From a virus (taxonomy: Duplodnaviria > Caudoviricetes): a stretch of 59,439 bases of DNA. Where the stretch lies: the IMG/VR virus record IMGVR_UViG_3300043037_000042, positions 1-59,439 of that record. The stretch is one strand, 5' to 3'. Both the position numbers and the translations under genes were made by a program. Each line of letters opens with the position of its first letter. The stretch's first letter is position 1. A model generated the notes under the pieces. It made no database searches and was not told the origin of the DNA. It worked only from the letters and a program-made list of their open reading frames with translations. This document shows positions 18,046 to 53,483 of the stretch, piece by piece.

Positions 18046-19524
18046 GAGAGTGTGAAATAATCTCTGTAAAATAACTTTCTATGATAAATTTCTAAGCACA
18101 TATATAAAATAATAAAGTAACGAATTATCATATATGCTTAGAAACAGTATAATTAAAAGTTTATAGTATGTCAACTAACACCCTACTAAAAGGGTGTTAG
18201 CTTTTTTGAACTAAAATTGCTATCTAAGTCGACCTTCAAACATAATTGAAAGTTCACCATAAACCTTGCCCCAATTTCTTAATGGCATAGTCCACTTTTT
18301 AGTAGCTTCAAATGTAGATAAATACAATGCCTTAAGAAGGGAAATATCACTAGGAAACACACTTCTCTGGCGGTTTAATCTACGGTATGTACTGTTTAAA
18401 CTTTCGATAGCATTTGTGGTATATATTACTTTTCTTACTTCAGCTGAATACTTGAAAATTGGGCTTATTACATCCCAGTTAGCTTCCCAACTTTTCATTG
18501 CATTAGGATAATGAGCATTCCAGGTTTCTGTAACCTCAAGCATACGCTCATAACCATTAACTTCGCTAGGAGCCTGATAGATGGTTTTTAGATCTGCAGC
18601 AAATTTCTTTTTATCTTTATCAGCAACATATTTCAATGTATTTCTAACTTGATGCACTATGCAACGTTGATATTCTGTATTAGGAAATGCTGCATTTACG
18701 GCTTCTTTCATTCCTGTCAAACCATCAGCGCATAGAATCAGAATATCCTTTACACCTCTGTTTTTTAGTTCGTTGAGAGTGCTTAACCAGAACTTGCTGC
18801 TTTCATTTTCGCCAATTTGAATACTTAACACTTCTTTATGTCCTTCATCATTAATTCCCAATACTACATAAGCTGCAAGCTTTTGAATTACATTGTTGTT
18901 ACGTACCGAAAAATGAACAGCATCTACAAATACTATTGGATAGACTTTTGAAAGAGGGCGATGTTGCCAGTCCTCTATCTCAGGAAGAAGTTTATCTGTA
19001 ATATCTGATATTAATCCTTCGCTTACTTCGAAGCCATAAATATCTTCAATTTGCTCTGAAATTTGACGTGTTGATAGTCCTTTAGCATACATTGATATTA
19101 TCTTATCTTCAATATGAGAAATGTCCTTCTGACGTTTTTTTACGATCTGTGGTTCAAAAGAAGATTCCCTGTCTTGAGGGACTTCAATATCAAACTCACC
19201 ATACTTACTTCTAACAGATTTTGACTTTAGCCCGTTGCGTGCATTGCTGTTGACTGAGCGTTCATATGCCTCATAACCTAAATGGTTGTCCATTTCTGCC
19301 TCAAGCATACTTTCGATTGTTCCGCCCAAAAGATCTTTTAATGCATCTTGGATATCATCTGCTGTCTTAATGTCATATTCATTAATTAATGACGCGATGA
19401 TATTTTGTTTTCCTTCTGATAATCTTGTCCTTCTCTTTGCCATAAAAAAAGCCTCCTATAATTTTTATTTTATCATAGAAAGCTATTTTTTAAAATTAAT
19501 TTACAGACTTTTCTTCACAGGCTC
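18046..19524 (-). mobile_element. IS256-family insertion sequence (1479 bp)
   Basis: Imperfect terminal IRs GAGAGTGTGAAATAATCTCTGTAAA / GAGCCTGTGAAGAAAAGTCTGTAAA; 8-bp target duplication GTTTTTTT at 18038-18045 and 19525-19532. Confidence 0.93.
18220..19443 (-). CDS. IS256 (Mutator-like) DDE transposase
   Basis: VFVDA, CADGL, QRCIVH and YTTNAIESLN motifs. Confidence 0.96.
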   Translation of the reverse strand: MAKRRTRLSEGKQNIIASLINEYDIKTADDIQDALKDLLGGTIESMLEAEMDNHLGYEAYERSVNSNARNGLKSKSVRSKYGEFDIEVPQDRESSFEPQIVKKRQKDISHIEDKIISMYAKGLSTRQISEQIEDIYGFEVSEGLISDITDKLLPEIEDWQHRPLSKVYPIVFVDAVHFSVRNNNVIQKLAAYVVLGINDEGHKEVLSIQIGENESSKFWLSTLNELKNRGVKDILILCADGLTGMKEAVNAAFPNTEYQRCIVHQVRNTLKYVADKDKKKFAADLKTIYQAPSEVNGYERMLEVTETWNAHYPNAMKSWEANWDVISPIFKYSAEVRKVIYTTNAIESLNSTYRRLNRQRSVFPSDISLLKALYLSTFEATKKWTMPLRNWGKVYGELSIMFEGRLR

Positions 19525-37743: not shown

Positions 37744-38085
37744 TCATATCTTTGCACCTTCCATATTTTCTATAGCAATCCGCATAAGTGCTATCAAATC
37801 TCCGTTTGTAAACTTTTCATCAATAATTATGCTTATACCATATCGCTCTTTGATTCTTTCTTCTAAGACGGGATATTCATTTAACAATGATTCTTTTGCA
37901 TGTCTGATTGCTCTTTCTACTCTGCTTGCTTTAGTATCGTGTTTTTCTGCTATCGCTGAATATACGTCCATCATCTTTGTGTTAGGCTTGTACAATTCGA
38001 TAGCTGTTGATATGTATTCAAAGCCTTTTGTTGATGGTTTAATGCCTATGTAGAGTAGTTCTTTTTGTATCTGTTGTTTGTTCAT
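37744..38085 (-). CDS. Stand-alone Spo0A C-terminal DNA-binding domain protein
   Basis: LLYIGIKPSTKGFEYI..AI, VYSAIAEKHDTKASRVERAIRHA (Spo0A recognition helix), FTNGDLIA; no receiver domain. Confidence 0.88.
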   Translation of the reverse strand: MNKQQIQKELLYIGIKPSTKGFEYISTAIELYKPNTKMMDVYSAIAEKHDTKASRVERAIRHAKESLLNEYPVLEERIKERYGISIIIDEKFTNGDLIALMRIAIENMEGAKI

Positions 38086-40433: not shown

Positions 40434-41483
40434 ATGGCAAGCATACGAAAGATGAAAAACGGTAAATTTCAAGCTACCATTTATATTGGAAGAGATTCCG
40501 ACGGAAAGCAAATTAGAAAATATATAACCGCTGACACCGAGAAAGAATGCAAAAGCAAAGCAAGAGCATTAGAAACAGAAACAGAAGAGGGAAAATTTGT
40601 TAATATAAGCAATATAAAAGTAGGTAAATGGTTAGATGAATGGTTAGAGTTGAATAAAAATACTCTAGCTTCATCAACATACGTTCTTTATAAGGGATAT
40701 ATTAAAAATCATTATAAGCCATCATTAGGAAATTTGAAGTTGTCACAACTTAACGAAATACACATCAGAAAATTTGTTAATGAGAAATTAGAAACACAGG
40801 CACAAAACACAGTGAGAAAACTTATATTTGTATTGCGTAAGGCATTAAATGACGGTATGAAAGACAAAAACCCTGCTAAAGATATCGAAATACCATCTAA
40901 ACAAAAAACTCGTTTTAGGCTTGTTACAGAAGCTGAATTTAGTATTATACATGAAGAAGCTAAAAAAACTATATTTGACGAGTGCATTATTTTACTTGCA
41001 GCTTGGGGCGGACTTAGACGGGGTGAAATATTTGCATTAAAACCAGATGATGTTTTTGTAAAAGACAATATTATTAGAGTTGATGAAGCAAGGTCGATTT
41101 CCGACGAGGGTTACAAGGACAAGCGCCCAAAAAGCGAAAATGGTTTTAGAGATGTTACCATTCCAAAATATTTAATGGACTTAATTGTTGTATACCGAAA
41201 AGAGCAAGGGAAAATAACAGATAGATTATTTAATATGCGACCAGATAGATATAGCCACAGATTCAAAGAGTTAATCGACCGCACAACTCTGTGCGGTGAG
41301 AATATAGTTTTTCACGATTTAAGGCATTATCATGCATCATGGCTTTATAAAAATGGAATGCCCGATTTATACTCTGCTGAAAGATTAGGTCACGATATTA
41401 ACACATTGAAACAAATCTACCAACACATGGACAAAAATATTAAATTAGAAAATGATAAGAAAATAATAGATATGATGAATTAA
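40434..41483 (+). CDS. Phage integrase (tyrosine recombinase with arm-binding N-terminus)
   Basis: GGLRRGE, HDLRH, LGH, QIY; adjacent to attP. Confidence 0.95.
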   Translation: MASIRKMKNGKFQATIYIGRDSDGKQIRKYITADTEKECKSKARALETETEEGKFVNISNIKVGKWLDEWLELNKNTLASSTYVLYKGYIKNHYKPSLGNLKLSQLNEIHIRKFVNEKLETQAQNTVRKLIFVLRKALNDGMKDKNPAKDIEIPSKQKTRFRLVTEAEFSIIHEEAKKTIFDECIILLAAWGGLRRGEIFALKPDDVFVKDNIIRVDEARSISDEGYKDKRPKSENGFRDVTIPKYLMDLIVVYRKEQGKITDRLFNMRPDRYSHRFKELIDRTTLCGENIVFHDLRHYHASWLYKNGMPDLYSAERLGHDINTLKQIYQHMDKNIKLENDKKIIDMMN

Positions 41484-41489
41484 AAATTT

Positions 41490-41770
41490 TGTGCGTTTTT
41501 TGTTCGGTTTTTGTATTAAAAAAGCACCTACCGAAAATCGATAAGTGCTTCGTCTTGGTGCGGATGACAGGAGTCGAACCTGCACGCGTAAGCGCTAGAT
41601 CCTAAGTCTAGTGCTTTACGTTACGCAACTAAATTGATGATTATTGAAATTCAAATACATTGAAATTATATACAATAGTTACGTTGTTCATCATCTTATA
41701 GATAACTAATTTTTAATTATGTGCGTTAAATATCTTTTGTGCGGTTTTTTGTGCGGTATGTGCGGTAAAT
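41490..41770. other. attP: core is the 3' 59 nt of tRNA-Leu(TAG) (41556-41614, minus strand), flanked by arm-type repeats
   Basis: GCACTAGA-CTTAGGA-TCTAG...GCAGG-TTCGACT-CCTGT-CATCCGC-ACCA with no D-arm or 5' acceptor strand; TGTGCG(G)TT repeats on both sides (41490, 41501, 41720, 41738-41767). Confidence 0.88.
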
Positions 41771-41793: not shown

Positions 41794-42309
41794 TTATAGC
41801 AGTTCTTTTATACTTTTAGATATTATGTCAATCCTGTTGCTACTAACATCTGAATTGCTAAAAATTAATAGTTTTTTAAATCTTCCATTATCCTCGTACT
41901 TTTTAATTTTTCTAGCGATATTGTTATTTGACAATTCAACTTCTACAGCAAGAGTTCCTTTTTTACCATCTTTTTCAATCTGTAACACCATATCTGGTAT
42001 AAGTTTATCATAATCCTTTTGTACTTCAAAATCATGTATTTTATATCCGTTCTGATAGATCCATAAGTACGTTCTAGCTATATAATCAAGATGTAGCTTT
42101 TGTTTAGGTTCTCTCTTAGTAAAGTAAAAATATTTGTCATTGGCCCCATGTCTGGACCTTCTCAAGTATAAATAATCATGTAGAAAAGTTAATCTTCTGT
42201 TTGTTACTCTCTGGCTTGTGTTAGAAAAGAATATTTTTTGAATAGTATCGGAATAACAAGGCAGCTTACTAACAAACTCTACAACCTTATAATCCCTATC
42301 TGTAATCAA
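41794..42309 (-). CDS. Replication-relaxation (Replic_Relax)-like protein
   Basis: ITDRD wHTH start, RRL..L, H..YI, IPD...AVEVELS nuclease-like core; overlaps the FtsK stop. Confidence 0.75.
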   Translation of the reverse strand: MITDRDYKVVEFVSKLPCYSDTIQKIFFSNTSQRVTNRRLTFLHDYLYLRRSRHGANDKYFYFTKREPKQKLHLDYIARTYLWIYQNGYKIHDFEVQKDYDKLIPDMVLQIEKDGKKGTLAVEVELSNNNIARKIKKYEDNGRFKKLLIFSNSDVSSNRIDIISKSIKELL

Positions 42310-43121
42310 ATCAAGCTCACTTCCTTTAATTTAGTATGTTCAATCCTTTTGATGTTTTGTTGAGGGATCATATTGCCCATATAACATTTCATAAATATCA
42401 TCTTTTTAATTTCTCTATCTTCTAGGAAGTAACTTTTAAATTCTACATCTTGATTGTCATTTGTCAATATAGCTTCACCTTTACCATGTAGATTATTAAC
42501 AGCTCTGTAATCACCCTTATCAAGTAATATTTCGCTGTTGTATGTATTTCTAACCTTAAATGCTATCGTATGATTTAGGTTAGCTTTAAGCTTTGTATTT
42601 AAATTTTCGTGGCATGGTCTTTGTATGCTGAGTATAATTTTTATATTGACAGCTCTAGCCTGTGCTAAGATTATATTTAATTCTTTATTAAACTTCTTGT
42701 CATCACTTAACATGGTATATTCTTCAATTAATACAACTATAGGCTTCATAGTATTTTTAAACCTCTTGTTGTAGTCTTTGAAGTCTTTGCAATTAGTTCT
42801 ATCTAGTTCTTGGAATCTATCAATCATTAATGTTCTTATTTTATTAATCTCAATTTCAGCATCTTCAATATTCTTAATAAAAGCAGTAAGATATTTGTAG
42901 TTTCTGAATACATTGTAATCCCCGCCCATTTTCATATCAATTATTTTTAACTCTACATCTTGTAAGCACATGGCCGTCAATAAACACTTAATACATGATG
43001 TTTTACCGCTGCCCGTGATTCCTCCGACCAAGATGTGTGGTTGACTTTCTAAATCAATATATACAATTTTGCTTCCCTCTGCGGTAATTGTAACTCCTAA
43101 TGGAAATATCATTTTATTCAT
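42306..43121 (-). CDS. FtsK/SpoIIIE-family ATPase domain
   Basis: PHILVGGITGSGKT, IIDMK, VLIEEY, ARAVNI..LSIQRP, GKGEA; own GGAGG RBS. Confidence 0.92.
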   Translation of the reverse strand: MNKMIFPLGVTITAEGSKIVYIDLESQPHILVGGITGSGKTSCIKCLLTAMCLQDVELKIIDMKMGGDYNVFRNYKYLTAFIKNIEDAEIEINKIRTLMIDRFQELDRTNCKDFKDYNKRFKNTMKPIVVLIEEYTMLSDDKKFNKELNIILAQARAVNIKIILSIQRPCHENLNTKLKANLNHTIAFKVRNTYNSEILLDKGDYRAVNNLHGKGEAILTNDNQDVEFKSYFLEDREIKKMIFMKCYMGNMIPQQNIKRIEHTKLKEVSLI

Positions 43122-43131
43122 AATTATCCTC

Positions 43132-43551
43132 CTAATAATTTGGCTTGTAGACGTTTTTATACTCAACGTCGAATATTTGTATCAAAAGATTGTAATTGCT
43201 CGTTAATTCTAATTTAATAGGCTTCTTGATGATTGTTTCTAGTTCTTCTTGACACTTGACAAAATCTTTTAAGCATAAGCTTTCTGGTATGCTGAAAATA
43301 TATCTATCTCCTAATTCATTACAAGATTTTTTTAACAATTTAGGTGTTTTTTTCTCTGAATTGTACAAACCTAAATTTACAAACATCATTTTCCATTTAT
43401 CCCTTTTAAAATCACTAACTATCATTCCACCGCTCAACAAAGATAAAGCTATACTACATATCTTTATACCAGGAACAAAACTACCGAACACAAATAAAAA
43501 TATACAACCTATCAAACAATAAATATCTTTCATGAAATTCTTAGTATTCAT
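43132..43551 (-). CDS. Membrane protein, probably the N-terminal (TM + alpha-domain) half of FtsK
   Basis: Two N-terminal TM helices; YIFSIPESLCLKDF..L-like alpha-domain segment; directly upstream of the ATPase. Confidence 0.6.
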   Translation of the reverse strand: MNTKNFMKDIYCLIGCIFLFVFGSFVPGIKICSIALSLLSGGMIVSDFKRDKWKMMFVNLGLYNSEKKTPKLLKKSCNELGDRYIFSIPESLCLKDFVKCQEELETIIKKPIKLELTSNYNLLIQIFDVEYKNVYKPNY

Positions 43552-43910
43552 ATTAATTAATATTAACCTCCTATACTTTCAACTGTACTAACACCTATAC
43601 TAATGCATAAGTACACCAATATACAGTAATACAAGTGTATGGACAAACTTATTCATAGCCTTGTAAGAACGAATGTAGCGAAGCGGAGTTCTGTTCTGTG
43701 CCGAATTTTTTCAGATGATATTTTTCCTTATTTTTCTAATTTCGTCTTTGTCATTTGTGCCATAAACCCAGTCATTAAATTCCTCTTTAGTAATAGTTCC
43801 TTCCTTGATTTCATTCCTTAGATTCCTCATACCTTTTTTATTAGCTTTATGCATACCTTTGTAACAAGCTTTCTCAAACATTTTATATGCTTTACCCATG
43901 GTATCACCTA

Positions 43911-44036
43911 CTATTTTATAATTTCTATCAAGCATATTACAATAATCATTACAACCAAGATTCTATTTATTATCACATTAGTTCTATAAAATTTATCTTC
44001 AAATTTATTGTTATCGAATTCATCGTGGTAACTCAT
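43911..44036 (-). CDS. 41-aa membrane peptide
   Basis: GGAGG RBS; C-terminal ILVVMIIVICLIEII. Confidence 0.45.
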   Translation of the reverse strand: MSYHDEFDNNKFEDKFYRTNVIINRILVVMIIVICLIEIIK

Positions 44037-44104
44037 TCTTTGTTTTCCTCCCTTCTTGCAATTCTTCAATTTTATTTTTTAATAATTCTTTCATAATACT
44101 CTCC

Positions 44105-44362
44105 TTATACTTCTACTAATCTAAAAACAATATCTTCGCCATCTTCAAAAATTTGTATAGTAAAATTTCCGTCATCTGCTTTTAAAAGTATTCCAAATGG
44201 TTTGGTGTATTTAAAGCCAATGATTTCTGGAATTCTTCTATGTGTAAATTCATAATAAATATAGGCATTTTCTTTATTAATCTTGTTGTGTTCACGATAC
44301 AAGAAAAGCAAGGTTTCTTCCTGTTCCTTGGCAATTTTATTAAATAATTCTACTTTATTCAT
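44105..44362 (-). CDS. Hypothetical protein
   Basis: GGAGGGG RBS. Confidence 0.6.
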   Translation of the reverse strand: MNKVELFNKIAKEQEETLLFLYREHNKINKENAYIYYEFTHRRIPEIIGFKYTKPFGILLKADDGNFTIQIFEDGEDIVFRLVEV

Positions 44363-44385
44363 AATACCCCTCCATAAAATTCTAT

Positions 44386-44574
44386 TTATAAAACAATCTG
44401 ATAATTTTCTTCTTCTATCATTTTTGTCAAATGTTCAATCTGTATATTAAGTAATGTAATTTCAATATAAACCTCCCTGTAAAGTTGAATATCATTCATA
44501 ATGATACGTTTATTTTCAAGTGTTTTCTTATCCTTTTCTAGTTTTGCAATTTTCCTTTCAATCAATTCTTTCAT
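44386..44574 (-). CDS. Hypothetical coiled-coil protein
   Basis: AGGAGG RBS. Confidence 0.6.
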   Translation of the reverse strand: MKELIERKIAKLEKDKKTLENKRIIMNDIQLYREVYIEITLLNIQIEHLTKMIEEENYQIVL

Positions 44575-44584
44575 AAATTCCCTC

Positions 44585-45451
44585 CTATATATTTAACGGA
44601 TTGCTATTTATAGCATTTCTTAATTGTTTACTATCAATGTGAGTATAAATTTGTGTTGTAGCAACGCTTTCGTGACCTAGTATTTCCTGTAATGCTCTTA
44701 TATCTACATTGCCATACTGATACATTAACGTGGCTGCTGTATGTCTTAACTTATGCGGTGAATATCCTTTACCAGATAAATTGACTTTATTTAAATATTT
44801 TTCTAACATGTGCTGAATTCCCTTTTGTGAAAATCTGCTATTTCTATTGCTTAAAAACAATGCATTTTCATTGCTATTTCTTGTTTTTAAATATTCATCA
44901 ATGGCTTTTTTACAAACTTTATTCAAATAAATCGTTCTTTCTTTATTACCTTTTCCTACTACTGTCAATGTATCGTCGTTAAAATTTGCAATATCAATAC
45001 TTGTTAATTCCGATAGTCTTAAACCGCAATTTAAAAACAATATAACAATAGCATAATCTCGTTTATTATTTATAGAAGAAAGTAATTTTTTAGATTCCTC
45101 TAACGATAAGTGAATAGGTAATCTTTTTTCAATCTTTGGTATTTCTAAGTCAATAGTAGGGTTATTGGAAATGACTTTTATAGTACTGTGTAGGTATTTA
45201 AAGTACGATTTTAAACAAGCTATCTTTCTTGCCTTAGTTTTATTTGAATTGTCTCTGACGTTGCCTAGATAAGCTATAAATGCGTGTAAATCAGATATGT
45301 TTATTTTGTTGAGTATGTCAATATCTATTTCCTTTGAGTATCTCTCTTTTAAAAATTCATAGAATATATTTAAATCTAACCTATATTCATTTATTGTTTT
45401 TTGTGATTTTCCTTTAACTGATAGTAAGTAATCTAAATAATTTTCAACCAT
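44585..45451 (-). CDS. Tyrosine recombinase, XerC-like
   Basis: NCGLRLSE, GKGNK, SPHKLRHTAAT, LGH, TTQIYTH; likely start MVENY after GGAG. Confidence 0.93.
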   Translation of the reverse strand: MVENYLDYLLSVKGKSQKTINEYRLDLNIFYEFLKERYSKEIDIDILNKINISDLHAFIAYLGNVRDNSNKTKARKIACLKSYFKYLHSTIKVISNNPTIDLEIPKIEKRLPIHLSLEESKKLLSSINNKRDYAIVILFLNCGLRLSELTSIDIANFNDDTLTVVGKGNKERTIYLNKVCKKAIDEYLKTRNSNENALFLSNRNSRFSQKGIQHMLEKYLNKVNLSGKGYSPHKLRHTAATLMYQYGNVDIRALQEILGHESVATTQIYTHIDSKQLRNAINSNPLNI

Positions 45452-45543
45452 TTTAACATCTCCATAAAATTTTATTTGGCTTACAAAATGCGACAAGCTA
45501 TTTAACGATTATTTGGTAACATAATAAAAACACTCTTGTGTTT

Positions 45544-45582
45544 ACTCCCTCTATTGCTTGCCGGCGCTGGGGGAGTTTTCTT
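45544..45582 (+). promoter_or_regulatory. Hairpin + T-tract with TTGCCG loop in the recombinase leader (antisense orientation)
   Basis: ACTCCCTC...GC-TTGCCG-GC...GGGGGAGT-TTTCTT. Confidence 0.5.
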
Positions 45583-45760
45583 ATTCCATTGTAAAAAATC
45601 CTTTCATAACTTTTTGGTCTTTTGGCATTTCTAATCTTTGTTTTTCTCTTTTAAGTATATCTTTAATAAATCCACTTTTGCCAGTAGTGCTTTTGCAAAT
45701 CCACTCGTACAAATCAATTTCTTCCTTATTATTCTTAAATGTCAAATTTATTGATGGCAT
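45581..45760 (-). CDS. 59-aa ribbon-helix-helix/ParR-like protein
   Basis: Not in the track. GGAGGTG RBS; MPSINLTFKNNKEEIDLYEWICKSTTGKSGFIKDILKRE (strand-helix-helix pattern). Confidence 0.55.
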   Translation of the reverse strand: MPSINLTFKNNKEEIDLYEWICKSTTGKSGFIKDILKREKQRLEMPKDQKVMKGFFTME

Positions 45761-45928: not shown

Positions 45929-46228
45929 ATGTTTTCGGTAGATGTGACAACATTAGCGGGGGCAATAGCTTTATTTTTAGCAGCGTTTAATTTGCCATAT
46001 GGGTATTATAACTTTTTAAGGGTTTTTATAAGCTTAATATCTGTTTATGGAATTTTTACAAGGTATAAAGATTCTAAATTGATGACTGTGATATATTTTA
46101 TAACATTGGCAATATTTAATCCTATATGGAAAGTTGTGTTTGATAAAGGAACGTGGAAAGTTGTAGATGTGTTGTTTGGATTAGTATTTTTATATTTGAG
46201 TTATGCTCCAAAGAATTATAGAGATTAA
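45929..46228 (+). CDS. DUF6804-like membrane protein
   Basis: LPYGYYNFLR, AIFNPI, W.VVD motifs; multiple TM helices. Confidence 0.7.
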   Translation: MFSVDVTTLAGAIALFLAAFNLPYGYYNFLRVFISLISVYGIFTRYKDSKLMTVIYFITLAIFNPIWKVVFDKGTWKVVDVLFGLVFLYLSYAPKNYRD

Positions 46229-46259
46229 AAATATGTATTGTAAAAATAGGAGGTATATT

Positions 46260-46649
46260 ATGGAATCAAAAGAAATTGATGTAAATGAAACAGTAAAAAG
46301 CATATCAAAAAAAATCGAGGAATCCTTGGAACAAAAAATGTCAGAAAACAGAAAAACAGATAAGAGATTAAAAAAGTTTTTAATATTTATATATACAATT
46401 AGTTCTGCCTTACTTTTAATATTATTCACTCCATATAAACAATTTGCCTATGTTTCTAATAATGCTGTATTCACTGGACACAGAGGATTTAAGTCATTAT
46501 TTTTATTTAATAATCTAGAAGAATCGTTCAATGGAAGATTAGCTATTTATTACATTGATTTTCAAGTGTTGTTTGTAGAATTGATTACTTTAACAATTAT
46601 ATTCATAGGATTATATTTGATATCAAAAAAGGCAACAAAAAAAGACTAG
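46260..46649 (+). CDS. Two-TM membrane protein
   Basis: Start MESKE after AGGAGG; two hydrophobic helices. Confidence 0.65.
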   Translation: MESKEIDVNETVKSISKKIEESLEQKMSENRKTDKRLKKFLIFIYTISSALLLILFTPYKQFAYVSNNAVFTGHRGFKSLFLFNNLEESFNGRLAIYYIDFQVLFVELITLTIIFIGLYLISKKATKKD

Positions 46650-48128: not shown

Positions 48129-51100
48129 CTATTTTTGATTTACTAAACTTTGATAATATTTAATCGCTCTTTTAACTGTTTCCCTCTCGTCTTCAGTAAG
48201 CCACATATAGAATTGTTGCTTTTCGTTTTTCTTATCAACTAATCCATATAAAGGGTCCAAAGATGCAAGACTTGTCGCAAGTCCTCTAGCTGTACCACCT
48301 AAATCCTTATACTTCTGCAAATATTTTTCTGCGATTTTTTCATCACCATATCTCAAGGCTTGTTTATAATAATACAAAGCTTCTGATGTCTCTTTACCTC
48401 CTAACGATTTATTAGACTCTTCTTTTAGTACTTGCTTTTTAAATTTATACTTTAAATCTAAAGCCTTATAATATGCATTTACTTCTGGTTTACTTTTGTA
48501 AATAAAAGCCTTTTGCCATGTCTTTAAATATGACGTTTCCATTGGTAAGCCTGCTAATTTTGTGTATTCATCTTTAACACCTAATGAACTTGCGATATAA
48601 TATCCATTATCTCTTATAATTCCTGGATTCCTTATGTCTGGATAGAATGTCATACCAGGTAGTAATTCAAGCGGCATTTTAATAAATGGGCTTAACGAAT
48701 TTGCAATTTTATTAATAGGTGCAATAGCCATATCGGTTAATTGGTCTTTAGCTGTTTTTCTTTCATTAAGCAATTCTTCAAAATCTGATTGTATTTGGTC
48801 TAATCCAAACCAATCGAGAACGTCGTTTAATGCTCCTAATCTACTAAAATAAATAATATTTCCGTCTTTATCTTTTCCTAAAGTTAAGTGAGGCGTATTT
48901 TTAATATCATCTGGTAATTCGTCATCTTCATCGGGCATAGCAAATCTATTCCACGCCATAAACAAAGCTGATGCAAATAACACCCTAATAGCCATCTTGC
49001 CTAATAATTCTGCTGATTTTACGCTTGTAAATCCTGTTAATTTTAATCCAGACATTACTTTTTTCCCTACTTCTTTTTGGTATTTAATATCTTTTATTGT
49101 ATTTTCAAATACTCTTTTGTAACGTTTCATGTTGACCTCATTCCAACTTTGAAAAGGTATTAAATATTTTTTTAGAGCTTGGCCCACCTCTGTTATTTCG
49201 TCATATGCCCCTAATGCATCTTTGCTCAACTGATATGCTTTATCCTCTATGCTCTTTAACCCATCAATTCTATTTCTGTTAGATGCACCATAATAAGTAG
49301 GTTTACCGTTGTTCTTCTTTATATCTTCTTTAAAATACAAGTATGAAGAATATCGGAATATACTTTCTCGGTAGTTCGTGGCGTTTTCAGTAAAATTTGT
49401 ATACGTGCTTAGTCCTGGTATGCTCTTAGTAATTTTTCTAACTATATTATCAGTATCTTGTTTATTGTATATTTTGAATTTCTTCATTTCGTTTACTTCA
49501 CCTAATTCTTGTGCGTACATTAAATCAGAAAAACCGCCAGCGTTTCTAAAATCTAATAAATCATTAGTGAACCTACCGAACTTCATAGCATTGTATAATT
49601 CTTTAGATGCTCTACCTACTATTTTAGGATTAAAAGCTTTAAAGCCACCAGCTGCCATAAGGCCATCAATATCGCCTGTTATGTTTCTAATGTTATATTT
49701 AACAACTTGCCTTGGGTTTACAGTTAATACCCATGATTTAAATAATTTCATCGGAACACTTAGCAATTGATGCAATATATCGTCTTGAGAAGTTATTTTT
49801 TTATAAGTATTGTCTAATGAAGTTGCTATATTATTTGGCAATACAAACTGTTCTTTGTCTAATCCCATAGCTAACATTTTTCTTGTCTTTTTATCAGATG
49901 GTGAAAGTTGGTCTAATGTATCATTGATTAAAGCTTCTGCGAAATTTTCGGAAACTGTATTTACAGAAAACATATGCTTTCCCGGTATTGGCTGCCATAT
50001 TGAGTAATCATCGGGTACAAAATCTTTCCATGTAAAATTAGGTTCTTCGTAATTTTCTCCTGCTTGTTCTTTAATGAAATCCTTTCTTTCTCTATCGCTT
50101 TCAAGCAAATTATAAGCATCTTCTAATTTTTTATTACCATTAATTGCATCCATAGCAAAAGTTTTATTACTTTCTCTTATTCTTTTATTTTCTTCCTTGG
50201 CTTGCGCTTTTAGTTTATTTTTAATTCCATATTTATTGTCTATTCTTTTTAACATTTGCGCTACTTCTTTATCGTATAACATAGTTGCTAATACTTCATA
50301 TTCGGCTTGCAAGTAATCTTCATTTATGGCCTTGTTAGTACCTTGCCTTTGTTTGGTATATCCTCTATTAGAATTAACCTTAACTTTATTTCCTGCCCCT
50401 GCTAGATTCTTAGCATTAACATATTCTAATACTTGATGTCTAAAATAATTCTTCTTGTTGAACCTTTCTTCAACATTAAAACCAATAGCGCCCATAGCTG
50501 TTGAATAATCTTTAATTAGATTATCCCAATATGCGGTCCTTCTTTCAAAAGCTTTTTCTATGTTAGGTGTTAATGATTTTTTTAATCTTTCATAATTATT
50601 TTTTACAGATTCCTCTGTCCATAATCCAGGTAATGTGTGTTCTAATTCTATTTCTTCCATTAAGTCAGACAGTAAAACAAATCTTTCAAACCTACTATAT
50701 TCCTCTGTTGATAATTGTTCGTTTTCTTTTTGTGTTATGTCAGTAAGTATTCTAGTTGCTTCATCACCCGCTATTGATTTTATTTTAGGATATCTGACTA
50801 GTTCTTTCATTATTTCTGCGTTTTCCGAAAGATTAGGATCCAAATTTCTAAACGTCCTAGTTGCAGCTTTTTTAAATTCACTAGCCATGGTCTTTATTTT
50901 ATCTATTTTTCTAGTTTTGGTAATTCTGTTATTTTTATATTGTTCCTCTAATTCTTTGCTATCATAAGTGAATTTATTTTCTATTGGAGTAGGTTCTTTA
51001 CCTAGCCTTATATATCCATCTTCGTTGTCTAATGGGTTGACAGGAGTTTCACCTATGAATTGCGATGGTACTTCATCTTTGACTTGTTGCACTTCTTCCT

Positions 51101-53483
51101 CTGTTCCTTGTACTGTGTCAGTCTTTTCTACAATTTCATTTTCTTTATTATCTATTTTTTGAATTTGGTCTGGACTAAAAGCAACTATTTCAAGTCCGTC
51201 TATATTATTACTACCTTTGCCTATAAAGCCATCATATCCTAATTCTTGAAGTGATTTTTTTATAATTTCAATATTGCCATCTTCGTTATATAGATTATCC
51301 CATTCTAGTTCCCAATCTGGATATCCTTCTTCTTCTAAATATTCATCGACTGTCATGCCTTCGTCTTTTGCACGTTCTTTTATGATTTTACTTTCGTATT
51401 CTTTGTATGCCTTTGTATTAGAAATATCAACTTTTCCATCGTTATCGTAAAAAGGCTTTTTAATGTTTGCATACGCCTTGATTATATTTTTACCATAATC
51501 TTTTGCATTCTCCATATTGTCGGTTAAATAAATACCCGTTCCCCAACCAGGCGCATAATTAGGAGTGAATGTATCAAATTTGGCATCTGTGCCATGGTAA
51601 ACAGTTAATAAATTGCCGTCTTTGTTTCTTACCTTGCTATCTTTAAAGGTTTCTTGTTGTTCTTTGGTTAATATGTTTTTTTCGCTATCTTCTGCATAAT
51701 TATTCATGTTGTCATTTTCATCTATTGGTTGGATTTCTTCTTGTTTATTTCCGATAATCTTTTCTTGTGCAATTTCTTGCATAGTACTATCTTGATTAAT
51801 AGGCTCACTAACAACTTGATTTTCCATTTGTGGTACATCTTCGATTTGTCGTGTTTCTATATTAGATACATTTTCAATAGGTTGTATCTGATTTTCTTCA
51901 ATTTCTTTTATAACGTCATTATTTGCGTTTTGAGCGATTTTAACATCGCCATTGACTAATTGCTCGCCATTGTTATTTTCGTTCGCCTGTACCTTGTTTA
52001 TGACTTGTGTTTTATACTCATTTAACTTGTTAATATGACCGTCAAAGAAATCTGTTAATTCTGGATATGCTCTCTTAGTAACTTCTAACATTTGCTTAGT
52101 GGCTTCTATGCTTTTGTCTAGATTGTCACCTTTTATGTTTTTGTTTTCTAAGCCATTGTATAAAGTTTTTAAATCTTCATCAATTCCAGTTTGAAGATTA
52201 GTTATTTGTTGATTATAGTTTTGTGGTTGATTATTATTTGATATTTTATTTATGCCATTATTAATTGCTCCACCAACTCCACCCATTAATGCACTAGATA
52301 CAAAAGCAGTAGCAGCATTATATCCTTGTTGTCCTGGATTAATTACAGCATTTTCAGTTGTAGAAAAGTAAGGCATACTTGAATCATAAGCAACTTTTTG
52401 TCCTAAATTTTCTAAAGGATATTGCATTATTTCCTCAAATGCTTCACCTAGTCCACTTTCTATAGTTAATTTACCTATTGACATTTTAGATGCAAGTTTT
52501 TTTGCCAAATTTTCAGTACCGCCCATAACCTCTATTAATCCGCTAGGTATACCACCTAGTAAAGATGATTTAATAGCTTGCTCTTTTGTGGCCCCGTCTT
52601 TTATAGCTTGATAGTATTGATTACCTACACTTTGTATCATAGAAGGTATTAAGTTAGGATTTTTTACAACATCTGTTAATGCTTGCTGTGTGGTTAATGC
52701 TAAAGTTGGATTAGATAATTGAGCTGCATTGCTAATTAATTGCGTACCATTAGATGCTAACAATGGATTAGTTGCTGCTATAGGTGCGCCTGCTAATCCT
52801 ATTCCTACGCTTGGTATTGATTGCCCTATTCCTCTAAATACTTGCCCTGCAAACTCTCCGACATTACCTTGATTAATTTCTGCTAATCTCGCATCTTCTT
52901 TTGAAGTATCTTTCTTGATAGCATTTAAATAATTGTCAACAAAAGGTATATTTTTATCTCCTAAAGTCATATCAACTACATTTGCAACACCTCTACCTAA
53001 ATCACCAAACCCCGCCCATAAATTAGTAGCAGCTGATTTTACAGGATTAGTTCCCCATTCGCCTTGTTTAGATGCATCTATTTTAGGCAAGTATTGAGAA
53101 GTAGGACCTACTTGACTACGTTCATTTTTTATAGTCTTACCTCTGTTCATACTTAAATTAGAAAGTAAATCCACTAATTCATTTTCTGGATTAGTGGATT
53201 TTGTTTGTTGTGTAATTGGTTTAATTTTTGGTTGTTCATAATTTGGCGTATTAAAGTTTGTTTTTATTTTAAAAGGTGAATATGTTTCGCTAGTTTTAGG
53301 AACAGCAGTATTAGTATTGCTATCTAAATTAAACTTTTTAACTGTTTCTGGCTTAATCTGATTCACTGATACTTTTTTACTATCTACCATATATTTATAA
53401 ACATCACCAATTTGTTGTTCGCTTAATTGAGATTTTTTAATCTTTCCTGTTTTCAGTCCTTGATACAGTTCTAATGTGTCCAT
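48129..53483 (-). CDS. Large internal-virion/ejection-type polyvalent protein with ADP-ribosyltransferase-like domain
   Basis: 1784 aa in the structural module; Gly/Ala-rich hydrophobic stretches; VYHGT..GIYLT..GYDG..EIVAF..QI domain at ~51160-51640. Confidence 0.75.
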   Translation of the reverse strand: MDTLELYQGLKTGKIKKSQLSEQQIGDVYKYMVDSKKVSVNQIKPETVKKFNLDSNTNTAVPKTSETYSPFKIKTNFNTPNYEQPKIKPITQQTKSTNPENELVDLLSNLSMNRGKTIKNERSQVGPTSQYLPKIDASKQGEWGTNPVKSAATNLWAGFGDLGRGVANVVDMTLGDKNIPFVDNYLNAIKKDTSKEDARLAEINQGNVGEFAGQVFRGIGQSIPSVGIGLAGAPIAATNPLLASNGTQLISNAAQLSNPTLALTTQQALTDVVKNPNLIPSMIQSVGNQYYQAIKDGATKEQAIKSSLLGGIPSGLIEVMGGTENLAKKLASKMSIGKLTIESGLGEAFEEIMQYPLENLGQKVAYDSSMPYFSTTENAVINPGQQGYNAATAFVSSALMGGVGGAINNGINKISNNNQPQNYNQQITNLQTGIDEDLKTLYNGLENKNIKGDNLDKSIEATKQMLEVTKRAYPELTDFFDGHINKLNEYKTQVINKVQANENNNGEQLVNGDVKIAQNANNDVIKEIEENQIQPIENVSNIETRQIEDVPQMENQVVSEPINQDSTMQEIAQEKIIGNKQEEIQPIDENDNMNNYAEDSEKNILTKEQQETFKDSKVRNKDGNLLTVYHGTDAKFDTFTPNYAPGWGTGIYLTDNMENAKDYGKNIIKAYANIKKPFYDNDGKVDISNTKAYKEYESKIIKERAKDEGMTVDEYLEEEGYPDWELEWDNLYNEDGNIEIIKKSLQELGYDGFIGKGSNNIDGLEIVAFSPDQIQKIDNKENEIVEKTDTVQGTEEEVQQVKDEVPSQFIGETPVNPLDNEDGYIRLGKEPTPIENKFTYDSKELEEQYKNNRITKTRKIDKIKTMASEFKKAATRTFRNLDPNLSENAEIMKELVRYPKIKSIAGDEATRILTDITQKENEQLSTEEYSRFERFVLLSDLMEEIELEHTLPGLWTEESVKNNYERLKKSLTPNIEKAFERRTAYWDNLIKDYSTAMGAIGFNVEERFNKKNYFRHQVLEYVNAKNLAGAGNKVKVNSNRGYTKQRQGTNKAINEDYLQAEYEVLATMLYDKEVAQMLKRIDNKYGIKNKLKAQAKEENKRIRESNKTFAMDAINGNKKLEDAYNLLESDRERKDFIKEQAGENYEEPNFTWKDFVPDDYSIWQPIPGKHMFSVNTVSENFAEALINDTLDQLSPSDKKTRKMLAMGLDKEQFVLPNNIATSLDNTYKKITSQDDILHQLLSVPMKLFKSWVLTVNPRQVVKYNIRNITGDIDGLMAAGGFKAFNPKIVGRASKELYNAMKFGRFTNDLLDFRNAGGFSDLMYAQELGEVNEMKKFKIYNKQDTDNIVRKITKSIPGLSTYTNFTENATNYRESIFRYSSYLYFKEDIKKNNGKPTYYGASNRNRIDGLKSIEDKAYQLSKDALGAYDEITEVGQALKKYLIPFQSWNEVNMKRYKRVFENTIKDIKYQKEVGKKVMSGLKLTGFTSVKSAELLGKMAIRVLFASALFMAWNRFAMPDEDDELPDDIKNTPHLTLGKDKDGNIIYFSRLGALNDVLDWFGLDQIQSDFEELLNERKTAKDQLTDMAIAPINKIANSLSPFIKMPLELLPGMTFYPDIRNPGIIRDNGYYIASSLGVKDEYTKLAGLPMETSYLKTWQKAFIYKSKPEVNAYYKALDLKYKFKKQVLKEESNKSLGGKETSEALYYYKQALRYGDEKIAEKYLQKYKDLGGTARGLATSLASLDPLYGLVDKKNEKQQFYMWLTEDERETVKRAIKYYQSLVNQK

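What the first reader, a model, noticed from the sequence alone, without database searches (positions are those of the whole stretch)
41794..45760. Candidate phage DNA-translocation system: split FtsK/SpoIIIE + Replic_Relax, with XerC-like and ParR-like genes upstream
Seen: a co-oriented block between attP and lysis comprising an RHH/ParR-like ORF, XerC-like recombinase, small ORFs, TM protein, FtsK ATPase and Replic_Relax-like protein (coupled to FtsK), with no T4SS. Established: SpoIIIE pumps DNA into forespores, Streptomyces TraB moves dsDNA with a single FtsK-like protein, and FtsK/Replic_Relax pairs occur in Bacillota phages with function unknown to me. Inference: a virion-independent route that moves excised phage circles across a septum (into spores) or between cells, tied to Spo0A control and Xer monomerisation. 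This is my best candidate for an undescribed system.
Basis: partly seen in the sequence, partly recalled or inferred. Interest (0 to 1): 0.78.

Follow-up and report, generated by a model that had tools for sequence, protein, structure and literature searches.

The report
Phage DNA pump plus nicking nuclease
A temperate phage carries a small operon for a membrane-anchored DNA pump and a site-specific nuclease, a gene pair already noted in many Bacillus and Clostridium phages but whose purpose has never been tested.

Summary
The block is real. Nine co-oriented minus-strand genes lie between the lysis genes and attP. attP is a 59-nt copy of a host tRNA-Leu 3' end.

The conserved core is a 2-TM anchor, a TcpA/FtsK-like ATPase and a translationally coupled 171-aa protein. 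That protein is a winged helix plus a PD-(D/E)xK nuclease. It scores below the Pfam cut-off for Replic_Relax, but 71 of 98 profile-found relatives match that family. In relatives the anchor and ATPase are one protein. Here they are cleanly split, with a new ribosome-binding site.

The Xer recombinase is variable cargo. A Spo0A_C gene occurs in only 1 of 8 pair-bearing relatives. The RHH label is unproven.

The system is not undescribed. Pathria et al. (2012) described this "DNA translocation operon" in Bacillus phages. The pair is routinely annotated in Bacillus, Geobacillus and Clostridium phages and in clostridial plasmid prophages. Schwartz et al. (2023) proposed that phages use chromosome segregation genes for spore entrapment, and list spoIIIE among phage-carried sporulation homologues.

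The function is still untested. My best guess (0.4) is that the nuclease processes phage DNA at a specific site and the pump moves it across a membrane, most likely the sporulation septum. Rivals are conjugative mobilisation, defence and episome maintenance.

It is a new member of a known kind, of moderate interest.

The parts
45581..45760 (-). First gene of the block: 59-aa small protein, possible ribbon-helix-helix regulator (unproven)
   Evidence: It matches phrog_4223 (unknown function) at E 2.6e-7 and has no Pfam match. Homologues sit in the same position in L002, L004 and L006. The model has pLDDT 58.6, with an extended N-terminus and two helices.
44585..45496 (-). Xer-family tyrosine recombinase (likely ATG start at 45451, 288 aa); variable cargo, not part of the core
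   Evidence: PF00589 at 124.4 bits and PF02899 at 47.3 bits. NF040815 at 220.6 against a cut-off of 220. It is absent at this position in L002-L006. It is present beside the module in contigs about 90% identical to the block, in runs X3 and X4.
44386..44574 (-). 62-aa protein that looks like a coiled coil (my reading of the sequence)
   Evidence: 65%-identical homologues in L004 and L006. No family match at E below 0.01.
44105..44362 (-). 85-aa protein, variable
   Evidence: A homologue occurs only in L003. The relative in run X4 skips 43911-44390.
43911..44069 (-). 52-aa ORF with a hydrophobic C-terminus, variable
   Evidence: ORF list. No homologue in L002-L006. Skipped in the X4 relative.
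43711..43935 (-). Small basic protein (74-aa ORF; homologue in L006 is 62 aa), conserved core member of unknown role
   Evidence: Homologues in 5 of 5 close loci at 40-79% identity. No family match above threshold.
43666..43698 (-). Conserved inverted repeat CAGAAC-N21-GTTCT upstream of the anchor gene, followed by a conserved TTGTCC (-35-like); candidate operator or processing site
   Evidence: Conserved in 6 of 6 sequences, with one two-sided change that keeps the pairing in L006. It is the only match in the window; 8 of 100 shuffles give one or more. A promoter-like site lies at 43646-43618.
43132..43551 (-). 2-TM membrane anchor plus soluble domain; the N-terminal part of a translocase that is a single protein in relatives
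   Evidence: It aligns to residues 1-136 of the 421-aa fused protein of L002. The junction in the window reads stop, GGAGG, ATG. Fused forms of 413-435 aa make up 6 of 34 homologues.
42306..43121 (-). FtsK/HerA-superfamily ATPase, TcpA-like, without an FtsK gamma domain
   Evidence: PF01580 at 51.1 bits. With the profile, the best solved relatives are 6o1w-6o1z 'DNA translocase coupling protein' at E 3.7e-27, against FtsK 2ius at 9.3e-21. The Walker A motif GSGKT is invariant in 18 sequences.
41794..42309 (-). 171-aa winged-helix + PD-(D/E)xK nuclease of the Replic_Relax / MOB_C kind, translationally coupled to the ATPase
   Evidence: Model pLDDT 92.9. Residues 1-66 form a wHTH at Z about 9. 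Residues 72-171 match AF1548 at Z 8.8 and NucS at Z 8.4. D106 and E123 are invariant in 98 sequences. 71 of 98 relatives match PF13814.
41556..41614 (.). attP core, identical to the 3' part of a host tRNA-Leu(UAG)
   Evidence: Read directly from the sequence. Host contigs of 14,257 and 8,174 nt in runs X1 and X2 match only this stretch.
41278..41766 (.). Cluster of TGTGCGGT repeats on both sides of the attP core, probably arm-type integrase sites
   Evidence: All 5 exact matches, plus 3 of the 22 one-mismatch matches in the window, lie here. The repeats are not conserved in relatives that have other integrases.
40434..41483 (+). Phage integrase (context, not part of the module)
   Evidence: PF00589 at 60.9 bits and PF14659 at 55.1 bits.

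Best explanation
The block is one accessory operon of a complete temperate tailed phage that integrates into a tRNA-Leu gene.

Its conserved core is three genes:
- a 2-TM membrane anchor;
- an FtsK/HerA-superfamily ATPase whose nearest solved relative is the pCW3 coupling protein TcpA;
- a small winged-helix + PD-(D/E)xK nuclease of the Replic_Relax (MOB_C relaxase) kind, overlapping the ATPase stop codon.

Anchor and ATPase are one protein in relatives. Here they are split.

This is a new member of the FtsK-like + replication-relaxation pair ('DNA translocation operon') already annotated in Bacillus, Geobacillus and Clostridium phages and in clostridial plasmid prophages.

Shown here: the homology, the domain architecture, the conserved catalytic residues, the strict pairing of the two genes, and the position at the prophage end next to att.

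Inferred: the nuclease binds a specific site on phage DNA through its winged helix and nicks or cuts it. It hands the DNA to the membrane-anchored hexameric pump, which threads it across a membrane. I think the sporulation septum is the most likely membrane, so that the phage genome is carried into the forespore. The reason is that the carriers found include strictly lytic, integrating and plasmid-type phages, nearly all of endospore-forming Bacillota.

The Xer gene and the Spo0A_C gene are not parts of the system.
For: **Identity**
- FtsK_SpoIIIE domain at 51.1 bits.
- The TcpA structure is the best solved relative at E 3.7e-27, over profile positions 41-263.
- The anchor is fused to the ATPase in L002, L009, L010, L017 and in 6 of 34 database homologues.
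- The nuclease has a wHTH plus restriction-endonuclease-like fold, with D106 and E123 invariant in 98 sequences.
- 71 of 98 relatives match PF13814.

**Pairing.** In 17 of 17 instances of the nuclease gene, an FtsK-like gene ends within a few bases of its start on the same strand. These are the window, 8 viral loci, 4 metagenome loci, phage DLc1, phage c-st, pMU3262 and C. perfringens p4.

**One family across hosts.** One profile (A2) unites the window's nuclease with those of pMU3262 (6e-49), C. perfringens p4 (4e-29), phage c-st (1e-27) and Bacillus phage DLc1 (4.5e-21).

**Range of lifestyles**
- Integrating phages: the window, and L006 with a different integrase.
- Plasmid-type prophages with ParA, ParB_N or actin-like partition genes: L009, L010, L017; c-st and pMU3262.
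- A phi29-like lytic phage, DLc1.

**Hosts named in the records**
- 4 of 4 phage records and 23 of 23 plasmid records are from Clostridia.
- 30 of 33 phage records are from Bacillus, Geobacillus or Cytobacillus.

**Sporulation-type neighbours.** SpoIIIAC/AD-family and Spo0E genes flank the pair in pMU3262.

**Print.** spoIIIE (K03466) is listed among the phage-carried sporulation homologues that Schwartz et al. report as enriched in phages of spore-forming hosts (PMC10294663, passages).
Against: - No experiment supports any role. Deleting the operon in 0305phi8-36 gave no growth defect in the laboratory (PMC3357382, abstract and section 15); spores were not examined there.
- The ATPase is nearer to a conjugative coupling protein than to FtsK, and Pfam finds no FtsK gamma domain.
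- SpoIIIE needs no nuclease, and it is unclear how a free circle would be threaded through a septum.
- The apparent restriction to spore-formers may be a search horizon. All queries were from Bacillota and reach only about 30% identity. Three of 33 records bear Staphylococcus or Stenotrophomonas labels.
- The window's own host is unknown. The source label is 'shale gas metagenome'.
- Spo0A_C co-occurs in only 1 of 8 pair-bearing relatives.
- An Mrr_cat restriction endonuclease gene precedes the pair in L075, and genes annotated 'restriction endonuclease' precede it in c-st and pMU3262. This points rather to DNA conflict.
- I could not reproduce a direct link to CloDF13 MobC.
Confidence: 0.4

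Rival explanations
1. Conjugative mobilisation module. The nuclease is a MOB_C-type relaxase that nicks an oriT on the excised phage circle. The TcpA-like ATPase is its coupling protein. The phage genome then hitches a ride through the type IV secretion system of a co-resident conjugative element, like an integrative mobilisable element.
For: - PF13814 is the MOB_C relaxase family in CONJscan terms (PMC5357655, passages).
- MOB_C TraX has the same winged-helix + PD-(D/E)xK build (PMC12857230, passages).
- TcpA is the best solved relative of the ATPase.
- The order coupling protein, relaxase, att/integrase resembles the compact IME layout described by Coluzzi et al..
- Pathria et al. read the Bacillus phage operon this way.
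- The 'non-mobilizable' typing of the clostridial plasmids is not evidence against this reading. CloDF13 itself, the MOB_C prototype plasmid, gets that label.
Against: - The pair also occurs in a strictly lytic phi29-like phage. Per Pathria et al. it occurs in the lytic phages SPO1 and 0305phi8-36 as well. Mobilisation makes little sense for these.
- In streptococcal IMEs, TcpA-type coupling proteins were never found with MOB_C relaxases.
- No T4SS part was seen in the window.
- The proteins are shorter than typical relaxases.
- No oriT has been shown.
Confidence: 0.2
2. Defence or exclusion system. A membrane-anchored ATPase and a nuclease, expressed from the prophage, attack or expel incoming phage or plasmid DNA.
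For: - The block sits in the moron region between lysis and att, behind a strong terminator (46662-46643) and with its own promoter-like sites.
- In three provirus records the pair lies 0.7-1.2 kb from the provirus end.
- ATPase-plus-PD-(D/E)xK-nuclease pairs are common in defence (my own knowledge).
- The ATPase domain matches SspH (E 5e-25) and mad8 (E 1e-19) in PADLOC.
- An Mrr_cat endonuclease gene is a neighbour in L075, and genes annotated 'restriction endonuclease' are neighbours in c-st and pMU3262.
Against: - Of the 9 proteins scanned, only the ATPase matches any PADLOC model. The nuclease, the anchor and the small proteins match none.
- The PADLOC matches are to a shared ATPase domain that also sits at the end of unrelated proteins of about 1,800 aa.
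- The pair's relatives are conjugation and translocation proteins.
- The pair also occurs in lytic phages.
Confidence: 0.15
3. Episome maintenance. The pump and nuclease help segregate or resolve circular phage or plasmid molecules, with Xer resolving dimers, as FtsK does with XerCD at dif.
For: - The pair lies beside partition genes in L009, L010 and L017, c-st (TubZ-like) and pMU3262 (ParM and a tyrosine recombinase).
- A Xer-family gene sits inside the window's block.
- Genome papers on Bacillus phages make this association (PMC9658697 and PMC7685451, passages).
Against: - The window's phage integrates: it has an integrase and an attP in a tRNA gene. It shows no partition genes in the parts examined.
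- The ATPase lacks the gamma domain that activates XerD in FtsK (the mechanism is from PMC3130261, abstract as listed).
- Xer is not conserved with the pair.
- The pair also occurs in a linear, protein-primed phi29-like phage.
Confidence: 0.1
4. The block is a separate small integrative element nested in the phage, using the Xer-like recombinase as its own integrase.
For: - The block carries its own tyrosine recombinase.
- A contig about 90% identical to the block in another study shares 41800-43911 and 44390-45586 but not the flanks. The block therefore moves between genomes as a cassette.
Against: - No flanking direct repeats beyond short, chance-level matches.
- Five relatives keep the core in the same place without the recombinase.
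- Exchange of cassettes is ordinary phage mosaicism.
Confidence: 0.05

Closest known systems
'DNA translocation operon' of Bacillus phages (0305phi8-36 orf200/201/203/207; SPO1 gp27.3/27.4; Gamma, Cherry, Fah, WBeta, GBSV1, BV1), Pathria et al. 2012, PMC3357382
   Same: A MobC-family nuclease/relaxase gene lies next to a translocase ATPase, with membrane proteins. In the temperate members it sits beside integration genes. It is non-essential, and no complete T4SS is present.
   Different: In 0305phi8-36 the ATPase was described as VirD4/AAA_10-like without TM segments. Here it is FtsK_SpoIIIE/TcpA-like with a separate 2-TM anchor. I did not compare the sequences of 0305phi8-36 or SPO1 directly.
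FtsK/SpoIIIE-like + 'replication-relaxation / replication initiation' gene pair annotated in Bacillus and Geobacillus phages (DLc1 gp11/gp10, phiCM3, BtCS33, BceA1, GBSV1 and others)
   Same: The gene order is the same and the genes overlap. The DLc1 nuclease matches the window family's profile at E 4.5e-21, and its ATPase matches at 1e-29. 33 phage records hold such a nuclease.
   Different: Identity is low: tblastn with the window's own nuclease finds nothing in the phage collection. In DLc1 the ATPase is one 384-aa protein. DLc1 is lytic and phi29-like.
Clostridium phage c-st CST193/CST194, and the same pair on clostridial and Thermoanaerobacterium plasmids (C. perfringens p4, pMU3262)
   Same: An FtsK-like gene followed by the nuclease gene. 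Profile matches run from 1e-27 to 6e-49. The hosts are low-GC anaerobic Bacillota.
   Different: Those replicons are plasmid-type, with TubZ or ParM partition genes. The window's phage integrates. Their translocases are single proteins of 383-621 aa.
TcpA, coupling protein of Clostridium perfringens plasmid pCW3 (PDB 6o1w-6o1z; Traore et al. 2023, known to me only through the review PMC12857230)
   Same: It is the best solved sequence relative of the ATPase, at E 3.7e-27. It has an N-terminal membrane anchor plus an FtsK-like motor. The review says its hexamer resembles FtsK more than TrwB does.
   Different: TcpA works with a full Tcp T4SS and a tyrosine-recombinase-like relaxase, TcpM. Neither is present here. 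Here the anchor is a separate protein. That 6o1z is TcpA is my inference from the molecule name and from the review, which prints the code as '6OZ1'.
MOB_C relaxases (TraX of pAD1, MobC of CloDF13)
   Same: An N-terminal winged helix plus a PD-(D/E)xK catalytic domain. Same Pfam family, PF13814, by transitive evidence (literature).
   Different: The direct Pfam match is below the cut-off. No link to any CloDF13 ORF was found by profile or hhalign. In streptococcal IMEs, MOB_C pairs with VirD4-type rather than TcpA-type coupling proteins. Nicking has not been tested.
SpoIIIE / FtsK-XerCD and Streptomyces TraB
   Same: The same ATPase superfamily. All are membrane-anchored DNA pumps. TraB moves DNA without a T4SS (my own knowledge).
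   Different: There is no gamma or other DNA-reading domain on the ATPase. The equivalog scores are far below cut-off: FtsK 54.8 against 1566, TraB 53.6 against 800. None of those systems has a partner nuclease.

Membership tests
Replic_Relax (PF13814) / MOB_C relaxases | Sequence membership in PF13814 | tested here: inconclusive
   The direct match is 16.7 bits, below the 25.3-bit cut-off. Transitively, 71 of 98 profile-found relatives match PF13814 at E<=0.001. The ESM-Atlas nearest clusters carry PF13814 on 19-50% of their members.
Replic_Relax (PF13814) / MOB_C relaxases | N-terminal winged helix plus C-terminal PD-(D/E)xK core with conserved acidic residues | tested here: met
   Model pLDDT 92.9. 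The wHTH scores Z about 9 over 62-64 residues. The nuclease core matches AF1548 at Z 8.8 and NucS at Z 8.4. D106 and E123 are invariant in 98 sequences.
Replic_Relax (PF13814) / MOB_C relaxases | Site-specific nicking at an oriT and dependence of DNA transfer on it | not testable with these tools
   Only a candidate conserved inverted repeat was found, at 43666-43698.
Replic_Relax (PF13814) / MOB_C relaxases | Works with a type IV secretion system, its own or a helper's | not testable with these tools
   No T4SS part was found among the ORFs scanned in the window. The host genome is not available. The genome-contig scans failed.
TcpA-type coupling proteins (FtsK/HerA superfamily) | FtsK_SpoIIIE ATPase domain with intact Walker motifs | tested here: met
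   PF01580 at 51.1 bits against a cut-off of 24. GSGKT and the acidic Walker B residue are invariant in 18 sequences.
TcpA-type coupling proteins (FtsK/HerA superfamily) | N-terminal transmembrane anchor | tested here: met
   The anchor is present but on a separate polypeptide (43132-43551). It is fused in L002 and other relatives.
TcpA-type coupling proteins (FtsK/HerA superfamily) | Closer to TcpA than to FtsK or VirD4 | tested here: inconclusive
   With the profile, 6o1z scores 98.4 bits against 77.4 bits for FtsK 2ius. With the single sequence the gap is small, 58.5 against 55.6 bits. No tree was built.
FtsK / SpoIIIE proper | C-terminal gamma (winged-helix) domain that reads KOPS/SRS and activates Xer | tested here: not met
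   PF09397 is not among the Pfam matches of the 286-aa ORF at E<=0.1. The protein ends about 30 residues after the motor domain. The FtsK equivalog scores 54.8 bits against a cut-off of 1566.
Xer recombinases | Tyrosine recombinase catalytic domain plus SAM_1 N-domain; equivalog score | tested here: inconclusive
   PF00589 and PF02899 are both matched. The NF040815 cut-off is just reached (220.6 against 220). The XerC score (232.5 against 335) and XerD score (202.6 against 330) are not reached. No dif-like site was sought.
Ribbon-helix-helix / ParR | RHH fold; for ParR, a partner ParM and a centromere | tested here: inconclusive
   No Pfam match. None of 10 homologues carries a precomputed Pfam domain. 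The model has pLDDT 58.6, with an extended N-terminus and two helices; this is compatible with RHH but not shown. No ParM-like gene is present in the block.
Known anti-phage defence systems (PADLOC-DB 2.0) | Matches to the set of proteins that defines a system | tested here: not met
   Only the ATPase matches (SspH, mad8, HerA), and it is 1 of 9 proteins scanned.
Phage FtsK-like + replication-relaxation pair ('DNA translocation operon') | Nuclease gene directly after, and overlapping, a membrane-associated FtsK-like ATPase gene in a phage or plasmid prophage, with homology to the Bacillus and Clostridium phage pairs | tested here: met
   The two genes overlap by 4 nt. 17 of 17 instances are paired. 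Profile matches to the DLc1, c-st, pMU3262 and p4 proteins.

The most novel reading that the evidence does not exclude
The pair is a self-sufficient DNA conduit that needs no T4SS. The nuclease opens the phage genome at a specific site. The membrane-anchored pump then drives it through the sporulation septum, or a septum between cells. This would give lytic, integrated and plasmid-type phages of endospore-formers a route of transmission that does not need a virion. The split translocase and the inserted Xer gene seen here would be variations on that machine.
Probability: 0.25. Interest if true: 0.8.

Novelty: new member of a known kind. Interest (0 to 1): 0.35.

Why it matters
Phage genomes of spore-forming Bacillota have carried this gene pair in their annotations for about twenty years, without a tested function. 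If it moves phage DNA into spores, it would explain how phages outlast host dormancy. If it mobilises phages by conjugation, it would blur the line between phages and mobilisable elements.

This window adds four things:
- an integrating phage from an uncultured low-GC anaerobe;
- a clean natural split of anchor and motor;
- a conserved candidate cis site;
- evidence that the Xer and Spo0A_C genes are not parts of the system.

It does not by itself make the open question easier to test, because the host is not in culture.

Tried and rejected
- **Complex prediction** of ATPase with nuclease: no answer, score 0.14 against a mark of 0.32. This is evidence in neither direction.
- **Expression**: no RNA holder is listed among the public runs, so nothing can be said about expression.
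I therefore have no host genomes, no census of T4SS and no census of sporulation capacity. Relatives cannot be drawn for a virus record.
- **Metagenome scan with the fused homologue P0029** found nothing. The scan with alignment A3 gave 53 loci. Only 4 of them carry the nuclease. Many of the rest are proteins of about 1,800 aa that share only the ATPase domain.
- **Similarity searches with the window's own sequences**: DNA of the block against phages gave no match. The nuclease by tblastn against phages and plasmids gave no match.
- **PDB sequence searches with the nuclease profiles** gave only chance-level or generic winged-helix matches.
- **Foldseek against PDB** gave no match at E<=0.001.
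- **Link to CloDF13 MobC**: neither hmmsearch nor hhalign against all ORFs of the plasmid record gave a match. The record's reading frames may be imperfect.
- **RHH fold** of the 59-aa protein: low-confidence model.
- **Nested-element idea**: no meaningful flanking repeats.
- **TGTGCGGT repeats as binding sites for the nuclease**: rejected in favour of integrase arm sites. They flank the attP core on both sides and are not conserved in relatives with other integrases.
- **Frameshift or sequencing error as the cause of the split**: rejected. The junction has a stop codon, a GGAGG and an ATG, and four close relatives are split in the same way.

Full report
**What the window is.**
- The window is a whole IMG/VR virus record of 59,439 bases. 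CheckV rates it 100% complete, and no end repeats were found.
- A 59,516-nt contig in a public run spans the examined stretch without a difference.
- It encodes a portal, a large terminase, a weak tail-sheath match, an exonuclease, a methyltransferase and an IS-type transposase.
- Around the block it also has a Peptidase_M23 endolysin, a LexA-like S24 repressor, a Cro-like protein and a Bro-N/ORF6C protein.
- It has an integrase and a Spo0A effector-domain-only protein.
- So this is a temperate tailed phage of a low-GC host; GC is 27-36% in 2-kb windows.

**The attachment site.**
- Just after the integrase gene, 41556-41614 reads as the anticodon stem to the CCA end of a tRNA-Leu(UAG) on the minus strand. 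ARAGORN finds no whole tRNA there.
- In two runs that hold the phage, separate contigs of 14,257 and 8,174 nt match only these 59 nt and continue into unlike sequence on both sides.
- This is what an empty host attB looks like, so the stretch is the attP core.
- All five exact TGTGCGGT copies in the window, and three one-mismatch copies, flank it within 41278-41766. I read them as integrase arm sites.

**The block.** Nine minus-strand ORFs fill 41794-45760. In transcription order they are:
1. a 59-aa protein;
2. a Xer-family recombinase;
3. four small ORFs of 62, 85, 52 and 74 aa;
4. a 139-aa protein with two hydrophobic segments;
5. an FtsK_SpoIIIE ATPase;
6. a 171-aa protein whose start overlaps the ATPase stop.

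- A strong terminator follows the endolysin gene, and two plus-strand genes separate lysis from the block. The block therefore has its own promoter region upstream of the 59-aa gene.
- The likely true starts are the ATG at 43121 for the ATPase (AGGAGG seven bases upstream) and the ATG at 45451 for the recombinase.

**The ATPase and its anchor.**
- The ATPase matches PF01580 at 51.1 bits. Its Walker A is invariant across 18 homologues.
- A profile of these homologues finds PDB 6o1w-6o1z, 'DNA translocase coupling protein', as the best solved relative. That hit scores E 3.7e-27 over nearly the whole domain. FtsK follows at 9.3e-21 and an EssC/YukB ATPase at 1.7e-18.
- A recent review gives the TcpA(102-530) structure of pCW3 as '6OZ1' (Traore et al. 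2023). I take this to be the same entry.
- With the single sequence, the lead over FtsK is slight.
- No FtsK gamma domain is found.
- Six of 34 database homologues are 413-435 aa long. They begin with the two hydrophobic segments and the soluble domain that form the separate 139-aa protein here.
- The 79%-identical relative L002 has one 421-aa protein. The window's two proteins align to it end to end, with a ten-residue linker missing. The window's junction reads ...VYKPNY-stop, GGAGG, ATG.
- L003-L006 are split in the same way, whereas L002, L009, L010 and L017 are fused.
- The split is therefore real and recent.

**The nuclease.**
- Pfam gives only a sub-threshold Replic_Relax match (16.7 bits). 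PHROGs gives an unknown family and a weak 'replication initiation by nicking' match.
- The word-indexed search found 12 proteins at E<=0.001 among 77 candidates.
- A profile of them found 356 representatives at E<=0.001, 99 at 1e-10 and 8 at 1e-30. Most are 170-200 aa long.
- I aligned the window's protein with 97 of the first 104 representatives listed. I left out seven fragments or partial matches (P0059, P0060, P0097, P0119, P0121, P0125, P0139), and I did not use ranks 105-150.
- Of these 98 sequences, 71 match PF13814 at E<=0.001.
- D106 and E123 are invariant. R5, D6, R39, R51, Y62, H73 and Y138 are nearly so.
- The AlphaFold model is confident: pLDDT 92.9, pTM 0.88.
- Residues 1-66 superpose on MarR/ArsR-type winged helices at Z about 9. 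Residues 72-171 superpose on the restriction-endonuclease-like AF1548 (Z 8.8, rmsd 2.8 over 92 residues) and on the NucS nuclease domain (Z 8.4).
- Foldseek gives weaker matches of the same kind. Among viral models it picks Bacillus phage G gp146 and a phage JL protein.
- ESM-Atlas neighbours are 'replication-relaxation family' clusters, mostly from Bacillota.
- PF13814 is what CONJscan calls MOB_C. The studied member TraX of pAD1 has the same winged helix plus PD-(D/E)xK build. It binds direct repeats 70-120 bp from its nick site and forms no detected covalent adduct (I saw only the review, not the original paper).

**Relatives and what is conserved.**
- Five close viral loci (73-87% identical ATPase) keep the order 74-aa protein, anchor, ATPase, nuclease directly after lysis genes. 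Three of the five also keep the 59-aa protein and two keep the 62-aa protein.
- In L006 the nuclease gene is again followed by an integrase on the other strand, but it is a different one, with an Arm-DNA-bind_4 domain.
- In three records typed as proviruses, the nuclease gene ends 0.7-1.2 kb from the record's end.
- The module therefore sits at the prophage end, reading outward towards att.
- The Xer gene is not at that position in any of the five. One of them has a 66%-identical orthologue about 33 kb away.
- However, two contigs about 90% identical to the block, from other studies, keep Xer beside the module. One of them lacks the 52-aa and 85-aa ORFs.
- Spo0A_C is found in 1 of the 8 relatives that carry the pair.
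- Upstream of the anchor gene, an inverted repeat CAGAAC-N21-GTTCT and a TTGTCC box are conserved in all six sequences, with one two-sided change that keeps the pairing in L006. It is the only such site in the window. It could be an operator or the site the nuclease acts on.

**Wider distribution.**
- Of 20 viral loci with an FtsK-like match, 8 have the nuclease gene directly downstream.
- Of 53 metagenome loci, 4 do. Many of the rest are proteins of about 1,800 aa that share only the ATPase domain.
- L009, L010 and L017 carry ParA-type, ParB_N or actin-like partition genes near the pair. They look like plasmid prophages.
- The L017 nuclease finds Clostridium phages c-st, D-1873 and LPCPA58 (4 of 4 records are Clostridium). 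It also finds 23 plasmids, all from Clostridia.
- In c-st the pair follows TubZ/TubR-like genes and a gene annotated 'restriction endonuclease'.
- In pMU3262 it lies among ParM, a tyrosine recombinase, a 'restriction endonuclease', a SpoIIIAC/AD-family gene and a Spo0E-family gene.
- Bacillus phage DLc1 is a phi29-like lytic phage. It has the pair annotated as 'FtsK/SpoIIIE-like' and 'Plasmid replication-relaxation'.
- The DLc1 nuclease finds 33 phage records: 27 Bacillus, 2 Geobacillus, 1 Cytobacillus, 2 labelled Staphylococcus and 1 labelled Stenotrophomonas. Most have the FtsK-like gene under the same match.
- One profile unites all of these with the window's protein.
- In all 17 instances I examined, the two genes abut or overlap on one strand.

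**What is in print.**
- Pathria et al. 2012 described the relaxase, coupling ATPase and membrane proteins of 0305phi8-36 as a 'DNA translocation operon'. They found partial versions in SPO1, GBSV1, BV1, Gamma, Cherry, Fah and WBeta.
- They noted that the temperate members have neighbouring integration genes. They also showed that deleting the operon causes no growth defect in the laboratory.
- Genome papers link Replic_Relax and FtsK/SpoIIIE genes with plasmid-type lysogeny, or suggest roles in sporulation or DNA injection.
- Schwartz et al. 2023 report sporulation-gene homologues that are enriched in phages of spore-forming hosts; their table lists spoIIIE (K03466). They suggest that chromosome segregation genes raise the chance of entrapment in the spore, and they describe truncated phage spo0A.
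- In six full-text searches I found no experimental demonstration of what the pair does. Subscription journals and supplements were not searchable.

**Mechanism.**
- Shown: a membrane-anchored hexameric-motor-type ATPase, and a sequence-specific-looking nuclease with intact catalytic residues. The two are always encoded together and translationally coupled.
- Inferred: the nuclease marks and opens phage DNA, and the motor moves it across a membrane.
- Which membrane is the open point.
  - I favour the sporulation septum (about 0.4 including the general mechanism). The carriers span lytic, integrating and plasmid-type phages, and nearly all named hosts are endospore-formers.
  - Conjugative mobilisation (0.2) fits the protein families best but not the lytic carriers.
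  - Defence (0.15) fits the moron position and the restriction-endonuclease neighbours, but no known system.
  - Episome maintenance (0.1) fits the partition-gene neighbours, but not this integrating phage or a linear phi29-like genome.
- The host-range argument is weak, because my searches could only reach relatives of Bacillota queries and because the scan of bacterial genomes failed.

**Verdict.**
Its claimed links to Spo0A and Xer do not hold up.
- It is a new member of a known kind. Its own small novelties are the split translocase and the conserved candidate cis site.

Noticed in passing
window 37744-38085 (-): [quoted passage not shown] Schwartz et al. 2023 describe this kind of truncated phage spo0A. 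Among the pair-bearing relatives it recurs only in the record of L006.
   Followed up: partly
window 18220-19443 (-), with 17790-18131 (-) beside it: An IS-type transposase (phrog_2331, E 5e-156) lies inside the phage genome. The neighbouring 113-aa ORF has no Pfam match.
   Followed up: no
window 48129-53483 (-): A 1,784-aa tail-region protein. By eye, its middle part (around residues 600-760) resembles an enzyme domain. A relative in L004 is 69% identical over the C-terminal 1,010 residues only.
   Followed up: no
L009:9427-9828, L010:6936-7370; L024 and L025 ('metal-dependent hydrolase'): A YdjM-family inner-membrane protein gene lies next to or near the pair. It directly flanks the pair in L009 and L010 (PF04307, E 6e-23 and 5e-14) and lies 0.8-1.9 kb downstream in L024 and L025 (annotation). 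The window's block has none.
   Followed up: partly
L075:3320-3934; c-st CST191; pMU3262 TSAC_RS14200: A restriction endonuclease gene sits just upstream of the pair in three unrelated contexts. In L075 it is Mrr_cat-type (PF04471, E 1.6e-25); in c-st and pMU3262 it is annotated 'restriction endonuclease'.
   Followed up: partly
window 41556-41614 in runs X1 and X2: Contigs with an unoccupied tRNA-Leu site (depth about 20 and 31) coexist with the phage contig (depth about 24 and 57) in the same runs. So free or replicating phage and uninfected or cured hosts were both present. The Logan contig is 77 nt longer than the record, which could be the overlap of a circular assembly (my inference).
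   Followed up: partly
L032 (plasmid CloDF13, PLSDB typing): CloDF13, the prototype plasmid of the MOB_C family, is typed 'non-mobilizable' in the PLSDB/MOB-suite table. That label therefore says little about plasmids with MOB_C-like genes.
   Followed up: no
window 45929-46228 (+) and 46203-46649 (+): Two plus-strand membrane-protein genes lie between the lysis genes and the block. The first is DUF6804 (E 8e-21). Relatives in runs X3 and X4 replace part of this stretch (joints at 45893/46419 and 46231/46638).
   Followed up: no
window 12342-12428 (-): The phage carries a tRNA-Ser(GCU) gene.
   Followed up: no
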